From Escherichia coli (lineage in GTDB: Bacteria; Pseudomonadota; Gammaproteobacteria; Enterobacterales; Enterobacteriaceae), in the NCBI RefSeq assembly GCF_044647545.1, contig NZ_CP172818.1: 64,000 bases of DNA. One strand, written 5' to 3'. Below, piece by piece: positions 3,604 through 6,187 of this stretch. The notes under the pieces are model-generated. The model was not told where the DNA came from, made no database searches, and was given only the letters and a program-made list of their open reading frames with translations. Numbering within the stretch: position 1 is the stretch's first letter; the number at the start of each line of letters is the position of its first letter. The position numbers and the translations under genes are program-made.

Positions 3604-4533
3604 ATGGAACGACTAAAACGCATGTCGGTGTTTGCCAAAGTAGTTGAATTTGGCTCTTTTACCGCCGCCGCCAGACAGCTACAGATGAGCGTTTCGTCCA
3701 TCAGTCAGACGGTGTCAAAACTGGAAGATGAGTTGCAGGTAAAGCTGTTAAACCGTAGCACACGCAGCATTGGCCTGACCGAAGCCGGTAGAATTTACTA
3801 CCAGGGCTGCCGTCGGATGCTCCATGAAGTGCAGGATGTTCATGAGCAACTGTATGCCTTCAATAACACCCCCATCGGGACGCTGCGCATTGGCTGTTCT
3901 TCAACTATGGCACAAAATGTTCTCGCCGGGCTGACAGCAAAAATGCTGAAAGAATACCCAGGTTTGAGCGTCAATCTGGTTACCGGAATTCCTGCCCCCG
4001 ACCTGATTGCCGATGGTCTGGATGTGGTGATCCGCGTCGGCGCGTTGCAGGATTCCAGCCTGTTTTCCCGCCGTCTGGGCGCGATGCCGATGGTGGTGTG
4101 CGCCGCGAAAAGCTATCTCACACAATACGGCATACCGGAAAAACCCGCCGATTTGAGTAGTCATTCATGGCTTGAATACAGCGTGCGGCCCGACAATGAA
4201 TTTGAACTGATCGCACCGGAAGGGATCTCGACTCGCCTGATCCCACAAGGAAGATTTGTGACTAATGATCCGATGACGCTGGTGCGCTGGCTGACGGCGG
4301 GTGCCGGGATCGCCTACGTGCCGCTGATGTGGGTGATCAACGAGATCAATCGTGGGGAGCTGGAGATCCTGCTGCCGCGTTATCAGTCAGATCCACGCCC
4401 GGTTTATGCGTTATATACCGAAAAAGATAAGCTGCCGCTGAAGGTACAAGTCGTGATCAACTCGCTAACGGATTATTTTGTTGAGGTCGGTAAATTGTTT
4501 CAGGAGATGCACGGGCGCGGGAAAGAGAAGTAA
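3604..4533 (+). CDS. aaeR: LysR-family transcriptional activator AaeR
   Basis: 309 aa ORF; N-terminal HTH (FAKVVEFGSFTAAARQLQMSVSSISQTV); divergent from aaeXAB. Confidence 0.9.
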   Translation: MERLKRMSVFAKVVEFGSFTAAARQLQMSVSSISQTVSKLEDELQVKLLNRSTRSIGLTEAGRIYYQGCRRMLHEVQDVHEQLYAFNNTPIGTLRIGCSSTMAQNVLAGLTAKMLKEYPGLSVNLVTGIPAPDLIADGLDVVIRVGALQDSSLFSRRLGAMPMVVCAAKSYLTQYGIPEKPADLSSHSWLEYSVRPDNEFELIAPEGISTRLIPQGRFVTNDPMTLVRWLTAGAGIAYVPLMWVINEINRGELEILLPRYQSDPRPVYALYTEKDKLPLKVQVVINSLTDYFVEVGKLFQEMHGRGKEK

Positions 4534-4570
4534 TTAATATTGTACTGTTACGTAGTACAAACCTGTGCCA

Positions 4571-4622
4571 ACGGGTTCCCCTCCCCCTAACCCCAGAGGG
4601 GCGAGGGGACCGTTCGTACACG
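4571..4622. terminator. GC-rich imperfect palindrome between convergent aaeR and tldD (candidate bidirectional terminator or BoxC-like repeat)
   Basis: cgggttcccctccccct aaccccag aggggcgaggggaccg forms an imperfect stem of about 16 bp. Confidence 0.4.
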
Positions 4623-4660
4623 GAGAAGGATTAATTATCCTTCTGAAAATACTGAAATTA

Positions 4661-6121
<1,461 letters not shown>

Positions 6122-6151
6122 TTAGTTACTGCAGTAGAGGTTTTTACGGCT

Positions 6152-6187
6152 GCCGGATGCGGCGTGAACGCCCTGTCCGGCCTACGG
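6152..6187. repeat. REP (repetitive extragenic palindrome) element
   Basis: gccggatgcggcgtgaacgccctgtccggcctacgg matches the classic REP consensus; lies between tldD and yhdP. Confidence 0.7.

What the first reader, a model, noticed from the sequence alone, without database searches (positions are those of the whole stretch)
4571..4622. GC-rich imperfect palindrome between convergent aaeR and tldD
cgggttcccctccccct...aggggcgaggggaccg forms an imperfect stem of about 16 bp that is unusually C/G-run-rich for an intrinsic terminator and lacks a clear U-tract. It may be a BoxC-type repeat rather than a simple terminator; it sits where two convergent genes need termination.
Basis: seen in the sequence. 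Interest (0 to 1): 0.2.

Follow-up and report, generated by a model that had tools for sequence, protein, structure and literature searches.

The report
Shortened BoxC repeat between aaeR and tldD
The GC-rich palindrome is this strain's slightly shortened copy of BoxC, a known dispersed E. coli repeat, and in E. coli K-12 the messenger RNAs of both converging genes end at its edges, so it is real but ordinary.

Summary
Window 4571-4613 forms a 16-bp GC-rich stem with one bulge (-27.5 kcal/mol) and no U tract on either strand. It sits in the 127-bp spacer between convergent aaeR and tldD.

The K-12 orthologue (MG1655 3390490-3390540) is verbatim a catalogued BoxC member and is listed by gene names in the G-quadruplex catalogue.

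The window carries a minority allele (about 3% of 5,421 E. coli records). It lacks one CCCTCA-type hexamer, so it has lost the third block that a triplex or a canonical G-quadruplex needs, and is a plain, more stable hairpin.

Public K-12 3'-end maps place the aaeR mRNA end at one edge of the element and two tldD ends in and just beyond its other side. Other BoxC copies also carry 3' ends, none with a U tract. A Rho-dependent region lies about 435 nt past the tldD stop.

Best reading: a REP-like RNA 3'-end-protecting hairpin, prone to slippage at the DNA level, not a classical terminator. Novelty: already known. Interest: low.

The parts
3604..4533 (+). aaeR coding sequence (context). Its mRNA runs into the element.
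   Evidence: ORF list. RefSeq annotation of the orthologous loci.
4661..6106 (-). tldD coding sequence (context), convergent with aaeR.
4540..4560 (.). AT-rich 7-bp hairpin (TTGTACT/AGTACAA). Locus-specific, not part of the repeat family.
   Evidence: The flanks without BoxC are single-copy in E. coli genomes.
4562..4623 (.). Long imperfect palindrome: an outer stem (4562-4574 with 4610-4623) enclosing the BoxC core.
   Evidence: Fold of the whole spacer and of the core.
4575..4617 (+). Segment homologous to BoxC (C-rich blocks first on the + strand). It is orthologous to MG1655 3390490-3390540, minus 6 bp.
   Evidence: nhmmer hit at 31.4 bits, E = 6e-8, spanning profile positions 2-50. Allele alignment. 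Published family list.
4577..4588 (+). Outer C-rich block, TCCCCTCCCCCT (K-12 has TCCCCTCACCCT). It is the left arm of the hairpin in this allele.
4589..4596 (+). Loop AACCCCAG. CCCC at 4591-4594 is all that remains of the middle C-rich block. The 6-bp deletion relative to K-12 (ACCCTC, flanked by the ACCC microhomology) lies here.
   Evidence: Alignment A1. Tract counts.
4597..4609 (+). G-rich block AGGGGCGAGGGGA, the right arm of the hairpin (C4602 bulged).
4610..4619 (+). Conserved right tail of BoxC (CCGTTCGTAC). Position 4619 corresponds to the mapped K-12 aaeR 3' terminus (3390541).
   Evidence: Family sequences. TRS 3' termini and coordinate transfer.
4566..4566 (-). Position equivalent to the distal K-12 tldD 3' terminus (3390482), at the foot of the extended stem. 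This is a predicted end for this allele, not a measured one.
   Evidence: Transferred through alignment A1.
4624..4644 (.). 8-bp hairpin AGAAGGAT/ATCCTTCT. Locus-specific. K-12 has a mismatch in it.

Best explanation
This is the aaeR-tldD copy of BoxC, a roughly 50-56-bp dispersed intergenic repeat of E. coli. The canonical unit has two tandem C-rich blocks followed by one G-rich block (CCCCTCACCC-TAA-CCCTCTCCCC-AAA-GGGGCGAGGGG-ACCGnnCGnG). In this strain a hexamer has been lost from the middle block and an A>C change has occurred in the outer block. The outer block now pairs with the G block in one plain 16-bp GC hairpin.

The element lies in the 3' untranslated region of both convergent mRNAs. 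I propose that it acts at the RNA level as a stable stem-loop that fixes and protects the two 3' ends, as REP elements do, and that it does not release RNA polymerase by itself. Polymerase reads through and is stopped further on, by Rho on the tldD strand. 3'-to-5' exonucleases then trim back to the hairpin. At the DNA level the tandem CCCTNA-like hexamers slip, which produces the 133-, 127- and 121-bp spacer alleles.

Shown: the identity as BoxC, the allele structure, the K-12 3' termini at the element, and the downstream Rho-dependent region. Inferred: exonuclease trimming, and the transfer of all K-12 results to this allele.
For: Identity. The K-12 orthologue equals eco:13_BoxC exactly, at MG1655 3390490-3390540. 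The profile hit in the window is 31.4 bits, E = 6e-8. The same locus is HPG1 member 37 in the G-quadruplex catalogue. BoxC, PIT and TMECO are the same element.

RNA 3' ends at this locus in K-12. The aaeR end is at 3390541 (+). The tldD ends are at 3390499 and 3390482 (-). The longest U run near them is 2-3 nt.

RNA 3' ends at other BoxC copies. Term-seq lists ends at 164636+, 632098+, 3781065+, 4231270-, 847200-, 3959467- and 3774365+. TRS lists ends at hrpB, hemB, glnH and alx. None has a U tract. A crude genome-wide expectation for such coincidences is 0.1-0.3 against 7 observed.

Not intrinsic termination. The lldD copy has an intrinsic-terminator score of 1.3, below the threshold of 3. 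PIT elements showed no promoter or terminator activity in reporter tests, as summarised.

Read-through and Rho. A Rho termination region lies at 3390148 (-), about 435 nt past the tldD stop, with Rho score 5.99 and p = 5.5e-18. The same arrangement is seen at the ppiC copy: a 3' end at 3959467- and a Rho region at 3959177-. The first 100 nt beyond the spacer have a C/G ratio of about 2 on both transcribed strands.

Comparative. Most Enterobacteriaceae have a single GC hairpin in this spacer. E. coli has BoxC at that position.

Slippage. The deletions are 6 or 12 bp with CCC-type microhomology and occur in at least three forms. The locus is 88.7-100% identical among E. coli records.
Against: No 3'-end data exist for a strain carrying this allele. 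All RNA evidence comes from the full-length K-12 allele. The curated Term-seq list of Adams et al. holds no 3' end for aaeR or tldD, so the ends are minor or come from poorly expressed genes. The published maps cannot tell termination from processing. Predicted hairpin stability varies widely between alleles (whole-spacer MFE from -38 to -55 kcal/mol), and BoxC copy number ranges from 2 to 35 per genome. Both points argue that any selected role is weak. Some ends in the G-rich orientation lie 13-16 nt past the Watson-Crick stem, further than exonuclease stalling usually leaves.
Confidence: 0.6

Rival explanations
1. The hairpin is a genuine bidirectional terminator that works without a U tract. 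RNA polymerase would stop at the very stable GC stem, perhaps helped by head-on collisions between polymerases on the two convergent genes.
For: 3' termini of both genes flank the element in K-12. The stem is very stable in both orientations. 7 of 19 K-12 BoxC loci lie between convergent genes. Relatives carry a single GC hairpin, usually also without a good U tract, in the same spacer.
Against: There is no U tract. Reporter tests found no terminator activity for these elements (reported). The lldD copy has a low intrinsic-terminator score. Bicyclomycin-sensitive read-through past the element on the tldD strand shows that polymerase crosses it.
Confidence: 0.2
2. The element acts as non-B DNA. 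It would form an intrastrand triplex (TMECO) or a G-quadruplex/hairpin switch (HPG1) that perturbs replication or transcription, or that promotes local rearrangement.
For: Full-length copies form triplexes or G-quadruplexes in vitro, and their loci are unusually variable. This locus is itself hypervariable and carries an IS insertion in one isolate.
Against: The window allele has only three C or G tracts, no canonical G4 motif on either strand, and only a 4-nt remnant of the middle block. It therefore fails the sequence requirement of both models. In vivo DMS footprinting gave no sign of a triplex, and the duplex wins when the complementary strand is present. The hexamer deletions are explained by simple slippage.
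Confidence: 0.07
3. The element is a decaying relic of a once-mobile or gene-converted repeat with no effect on either gene. Any RNA ends at it would be an inconsequential by-product.
For: About two thirds of E. coli genomes carry deleted alleles. Copy number collapses to 2-5 in some lineages. Flanking gene functions show no pattern.
Against: The element is retained in 5,415 of 5,426 genomes, and no empty site was seen. Every allele keeps a stable hairpin. 3' ends recur at many copies in two independent data sets. The same spacer holds a hairpin or a palindromic repeat in nearly all relatives.
Confidence: 0.15

Closest known systems
BoxC repeat of E. coli, also published as the PIT element (Hoyne and Maher), the TMECO intrastrand triplex motif (Holder et al. 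2015, PMC4666352) and the HPG1 G-quadruplex-hairpin-duplex switch (Kaplan et al. 2016, PMC5100583)
   Same: Same locus as the catalogued K-12 member (eco:13; HPGQ 37). Same outer C block, G block and right tail. Intergenic position. Member of a family with a median of about 19 detectable copies per E. coli genome.
   Different: One hexamer of the middle C block is missing and the outer block carries an A>C change. This gives three rather than four C/G tracts, so there is no three-block triplex motif and no canonical G4 motif. What remains is a single hairpin that is more stable than in K-12.
REP/BIME elements as mRNA 3'-end stabilisers
   Same: Dispersed intergenic palindromes, transcribed into 3' untranslated regions, with RNA 3' ends just downstream and no U tract. 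REP-like palindromes occupy this same spacer in Salmonella and Citrobacter.
   Different: No sequence similarity to the REP consensus. No dedicated transposase or binding protein is known for BoxC, whereas REP has RAYT/TnpA-REP, IHF and gyrase (from my own knowledge). BoxC copy number is about 20, against about 500 for REP.
Rho-independent (intrinsic) bidirectional terminators between convergent genes
   Same: A GC-rich stem-loop placed between two convergent stop codons, with 3' ends of both transcripts mapped at it in K-12.
   Different: No U tract or A tract on either side. Reporter tests of the family were negative. There is Rho-dependent read-through beyond the element.

Membership tests
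BoxC repeat | Significant match to a profile of other family members | tested here: met
   An nhmmer profile built from 21 K-12 copies, excluding this locus, hits window 4575-4617 at 31.4 bits, E = 6e-8. The K-12 allele scores 54.6 bits.
BoxC repeat | Orthology to a catalogued member | tested here: met
   The K-12 spacer contains eco:13_BoxC verbatim at MG1655 3390490-3390540. The window aligns to it end to end with one 6-bp gap.
BoxC repeat | Full architecture: two tandem C-rich blocks plus one G-rich block (about 50-56 bp) | tested here: not met
   The middle block is reduced to CCCC (4591-4594). The C tracts are 4, 5, 4 against 4, 3, 3, 4 in K-12. This is a truncated derivative of a true member, not a different element.
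BoxC repeat | Extragenic and multi-copy in the genome | tested here: met
   The element lies between two stop codons. A consensus finds 2-35 places (median 19) per genome in 5,425 of 5,426 E. coli genomes. Only one copy lies in the 64-kb window. Genomes sharing the window allele showed 5-11 places with the 127-bp spacer as query at E <= 10.
TMECO / PIT intrastrand triplex motif | Three consecutive triplex-forming blocks of at least 6 nt with loops of 1-6 nt | tested here: not met
   Only two full blocks remain, plus a 4-nt remnant. The criteria are quoted.
HPG1 G-quadruplex-hairpin-duplex switch | Four G tracts of at least 3 nt with loops of 1-7 nt on one strand | tested here: not met
   A regular-expression scan finds the motif only in the 133-bp alleles (minus strand). 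It finds none in the window allele on either strand.
Intrinsic terminator | GC-rich stem-loop | tested here: met
   16-bp stem, -27.5 kcal/mol (+) and -27.2 kcal/mol (-).
Intrinsic terminator | U tract immediately 3' of the stem | tested here: not met
   2 T in the 10 nt after the stem on each strand. The scan finds no terminator-like site in the spacer. The longest U run at the K-12 ends is 2-3 nt.
Intrinsic terminator | Factor-independent release of RNA polymerase at the site | not testable with these tools
   Reporter tests of PIT elements were reported as negative (summarised). They have not been done for this allele.
REP-like 3'-end protecting stem-loop downstream of a Rho-terminated gene | RNA 3' ends at the foot of the stem, and bicyclomycin-sensitive read-through further downstream | tested here: met
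   Met for the K-12 orthologue only, from published data. The ends are at 3390541 (+) and at 3390499 and 3390482 (-). The Rho region is at 3390148 (-). Not tested for the window allele.
REP/BIME | REP consensus palindrome (GCCGGATG...CCGGCCTAC type) | tested here: not met
   No REP core pattern occurs in 4534-4660.

The most novel reading that the evidence does not exclude
BoxC copies may be REP-like, orientation-independent modules that set RNA 3' ends. Hexamer slippage at the aaeR-tldD copy (133, 127 and 121-bp alleles) would then toggle the element between two forms. One form has two alternative structures and is G4-capable, and gives two tldD ends in K-12. The other is a single-hairpin form, as in the window. 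The switch would heritably change where and how stably the two convergent mRNAs end, and how far each reads antisense into its partner gene. The independent colonisation of the same spacer by BoxC in E. coli and in Enterobacter cloacae, and by REP-like palindromes in Salmonella and Citrobacter, would then reflect targeting of, or selection at, convergent 3' ends.
Probability: 0.2. Interest if true: 0.4.

Novelty: already known. Interest (0 to 1): 0.17.

Why it matters
It matters little for discovery. The element, its family, and even this exact locus in K-12 are already in the literature under four names. The useful outcomes are modest. First, annotation: RefSeq marks nothing in this spacer, so genome scans will keep re-finding the palindrome. 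Second, there is a concrete link, not stated in the BoxC, TMECO or G-quadruplex papers I read, between BoxC copies and mapped RNA 3' ends in two public data sets, including both genes at this locus. Third, natural alleles here remove the triplex and G4 potential but keep the hairpin. That offers a ready-made test of whether the hairpin or the non-B DNA structure is what matters.

Tried and rejected
- Rfam, with permissive thresholds over 4000-5200, gave only chance-level hits. The best at the site was Antizyme_FSE at 15.8 bits, E = 3.9.
- The promoter and terminator scan found nothing in the spacer.
- A search of the window for near-exact copies found none within 3 mismatches. The family relationship needed a profile and the literature.
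- My first two literature searches for 'Box C' were swamped by unrelated uses of the term.
- The SMRT-Cappable-seq supplements hold nothing for tldD or aaeR.
- The Dar and Sorek 2018 supplements are not held.
- The curated Term-seq list of Adams et al. has no 3' end for either gene. The ends were found only in the more sensitive TRS re-analysis.
- A BoxC hit on a 'plasmid' lies between flgG and flgF, which are chromosome-type genes, so it is not evidence of mobility.
- I looked for an empty site (the flanks joined without BoxC) in 5,421 E. coli records and saw none.
- I spent the single genome-contig scan on tldD orthologues rather than on a BoxC pattern. I therefore did not re-derive the taxonomic spread of the family, which Holder et al. 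report as more than 260 genomes.
- Small ORFs overlap the element (4457-4621 on the - strand, 4565-4885 on the + strand). I did not pursue them. They are mechanical ORFs in a spacer whose sequence and length vary between strains.

Full report
**1. The observation.** Window 4534-4660 is the 127-bp spacer between the stop codons of convergent aaeR (3604-4533, +) and tldD (4661-6106, -). 4571-4574 pairs with 4610-4613 and 4577-4588 pairs with 4597-4609, giving 16 pairs with C4602 bulged and an 8-nt loop. The energy is -27.5 kcal/mol as + strand RNA and -27.2 as - strand RNA. On its own the 52-mer is only moderately unusual (z = -2.4). The whole spacer is far more structured than shuffles (z = -7.1 and -4.7). 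It holds two further small hairpins (4540-4560, 4624-4644) and an outer stem that extends the palindrome to 4562-4623. Neither strand has a U tract after the stem, and the terminator scan finds nothing in the spacer. Rfam has no family for it.

**2. What it is.** The window is E. coli: the spacer is 100% identical to strains such as FDAARGOS_497, ST648 and ECONIH1. The published BoxC family list for K-12 (Petrillo et al. 2008, PMC2267715, supplementary sequences) contains as member 13 a 51-mer that is found verbatim in the K-12 aaeR-tldD spacer, at MG1655 3390490-3390540. A profile built from the other 21 listed copies hits the window at 4575-4617 (+) with 31.4 bits, E = 6e-8, spanning profile positions 2-50. 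It is the only hit in the 64 kb.

The same family has been redescribed several times. Hoyne and Maher called it the PIT element. Holder et al. 2015 called it the TMECO intrastrand triplex motif, with 23 copies in MG1655, all intergenic. Kaplan et al. 2016 called it the HPG1/HPG2 'G-quadruplex-hairpin-duplex switch', and their Table 1 lists this very locus: member 37, aaeR >>> 45 nt | 3390505 (-) | 67 nt <<< tldD. A BoxC consensus finds matches in 5,425 of 5,426 complete E. coli genomes, with 2-35 places per genome and a median of 19.

**3. What is particular about this allele.** The spacer is one of the most variable short stretches one could pick. Among 5,421 records it is 88.7-100% identical to the window and comes in lengths of 133, 127 and 121 bp.
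- With the K-12 spacer as query, about 37% of records carry 133-bp alleles, about 50% carry 127-bp alleles and about 13% carry mostly 121-bp alleles. These are estimates from identity classes and evenly spaced rows.
- Only 172 records (about 3%) are within one mismatch of the window.
- The alignment shows that all the length change lies in the C-rich arm. K-12 has CCCCTCACCC-TAA-CCCTCACCCC. The window has CCCCTCCCCC-TAA-CCCC, which is a loss of ACCCTC between ACCC repeats plus an A>C change. Strain L65 has lost the outer block instead. Strain Ecol_745 has lost 12 bp.
- These are slippage-type events between C tracts spaced at hexamer intervals, and they have happened in at least three different forms.

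The consequences are as follows. Only the 133-bp alleles keep four C/G tracts, and with them the canonical G4 motif on the minus strand and the three blocks a triplex needs. The window allele has three tracts and a 4-nt remnant, so it fails both definitions. Its remaining blocks pair better than in K-12: the core RNA folds at -38.1 against -32.2 kcal/mol, and the whole spacer at -54.8 against -43.0. Holder et al. describe such 'TMECO mutated' alleles as common.

The flanks, including the two small hairpins, are single-copy and always interrupted by the element. I saw no empty site.

**4. Comparative context.** I fetched tldD loci from 80 species and extracted the spacers.
- Most Enterobacteriaceae have 13-45 bp holding one GC-rich hairpin, often of the CCCTCT...AGAGGG kind.
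- Salmonella enterica subsp. diarizonae, several Citrobacter and Pseudocitrobacter have REP-like palindromes there.
- BoxC appears only in E. coli and, as an inverted pair with different flanks, in Enterobacter cloacae DSM 26481 (L022 2955-3056). Seven other Enterobacter loci lack it.
- BoxC was therefore acquired at this site within the Escherichia lineage, and independently in one Enterobacter. It occupies the place where relatives keep a simple hairpin.

[quoted passage not shown] The longest U runs near them are 2-3 nt. Placed on the sequence, the aaeR end is 10 nt past the G block, at the end of the conserved BoxC tail. One tldD end is 8 nt past the inner hairpin, and the other is at the foot of the extended stem. 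The two mRNAs thus end on opposite sides of the element and overlap across it. The window equivalents are 4619 (+), and 4583 and 4566 (-).

The pattern is general.
- The Term-seq table of Adams et al. 2021 (PMC7815308) has 3' ends directly after seven other BoxC or BoxC-like copies, in both orientations, none with a U tract.
- TRS adds ends at hrpB, hemB, glnH and alx.
- A crude genome-wide expectation is 0.1-0.3 such coincidences.

These ends do not look like intrinsic termination.
- The lldD copy has a terminator score of 1.3 against a threshold of 3.
- Reporter tests of PIT elements found no promoter or terminator activity (as summarised).
- On the tldD strand a bicyclomycin-sensitive Rho termination region lies at 3390148, about 435 nt past the stop codon inside antisense aaeR. 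Downstream/upstream reads are 26/148 untreated against 243/231 treated, giving a Rho score of 5.99 and p = 5.5e-18.
- The ppiC copy shows the same arrangement.
- In the window, the first 100 nt beyond the spacer are C-rich and G-poor on both transcribed strands (C/G about 2).

I therefore favour a REP-like role. Polymerase crosses the element and is released further on. Exonucleases then trim back to the very stable stem, which becomes the mature 3' end. The trimming step, and the transfer from the K-12 allele to this one, are inferences.

**6. Rivals.**
- *A U-less bidirectional terminator, possibly collision-assisted.* It fits the position and the paired 3' ends. It conflicts with the reporter data and with the Rho-dependent read-through.
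- *A non-B DNA role (triplex or G4).* This is the published emphasis, but this allele no longer has the required blocks. In vivo footprinting did not detect a triplex even for full copies.
- *A neutral relic.* This fits the lineage-specific decay: strains with the 121-bp allele show only 2-5 BoxC places. It also fits the wide range of hairpin stabilities. It fits less well with retention in 5,415 of 5,426 genomes and the recurrent 3' ends.

**7. Novelty and verdict.** The palindrome is real, the BoxC reading is right, and the locus is already catalogued, so it is already known. Two things go slightly beyond the papers I read. One is the coincidence of BoxC edges with mapped RNA 3' ends. The other is that natural alleles at this locus separate hairpin potential from triplex and G4 potential. 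Both are modest and untested in this strain. Interest: 0.17.

Noticed in passing
L007 380-482; L091 (NZ_OW967795.1 500600-502800): In E. coli isolate 538 an IS4-like ISEc13 element is inserted exactly in the loop of the 121-bp-allele BoxC hairpin, with an 8-bp duplication AACCCCAG.
   Followed up: partly
L022 2955-3056 (Enterobacter cloacae DSM 26481): An inverted pair of BoxC-like units fills the same aaeR-tldD spacer in this one Enterobacter. Seven other Enterobacter loci have only a short hairpin, so this looks like an independent acquisition at the same convergent spacer.
   Followed up: partly
L011, L012, L014, L015, L016, L026 (Citrobacter, Salmonella enterica subsp. diarizonae, Pseudocitrobacter, Enterobacter sp. 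ENT03), spacer after position 2943: REP-like palindromes (GCCTGATGGCGCTGCGCTTATCAGGCCTAC type, judged by eye) occupy the aaeR-tldD spacer in these species. Different repeat families have colonised the same site in different genera.
   Followed up: no
E. coli genomes collection: Detectable BoxC places per genome range from 2 to 35. CFT073, a Nissle derivative, ST131-type strains and others with the 121-bp allele have only 2-5, so the family has largely decayed or been lost in some lineages.
   Followed up: no
K-12 MG1655 847200 (-), 3959467 (-), 3774365 (+) (published Term-seq): At BoxC copies read in the G-rich orientation, the RNA 3' ends fall within 0-4 nt of the end of the third block. That is 13-16 nt past the Watson-Crick hairpin, further than exonuclease stalling usually leaves. 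The third block may take part in the protective RNA structure.
   Followed up: partly
K-12 MG1655 624680 (-) (published Term-seq): An abundant 'orphan' 3' end upstream of fepB stops at the 5' edge of a BoxC-like unit (the upstream sequence ends ...GCCCCCTCTC). Here the element lies in a 5' leader rather than a 3' UTR.
   Followed up: no
window about 6150-6180: A REP-like palindrome lies just upstream of tldD, between tldD and the next gene. In K-12, TRS lists a 3' terminus right after it (3392117-3392121, -).
   Followed up: no
L010 (Escherichia albertii NBRC 107761): No aaeR homologue lies within 1.5 kb downstream of tldD, and there is no BoxC. The locus is arranged differently in this close relative.
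   Followed up: no
window 4434-4533 (- strand RNA) and 4661-4760 (+ strand RNA): The first 100 nt beyond the spacer are C-rich and G-poor on both transcribed strands (C/G 2.0 and 1.85). This is the composition expected of Rho utilisation sites.
   Followed up: partly
L090 (NZ_CP074792.1 'plasmid' p94_0962-1, 1627-1664): A BoxC copy lies between flgG and flgF on a 155-kb record labelled as a plasmid. The surrounding genes are chromosomal flagellar genes, so the record is chromosome-like.
   Followed up: partly
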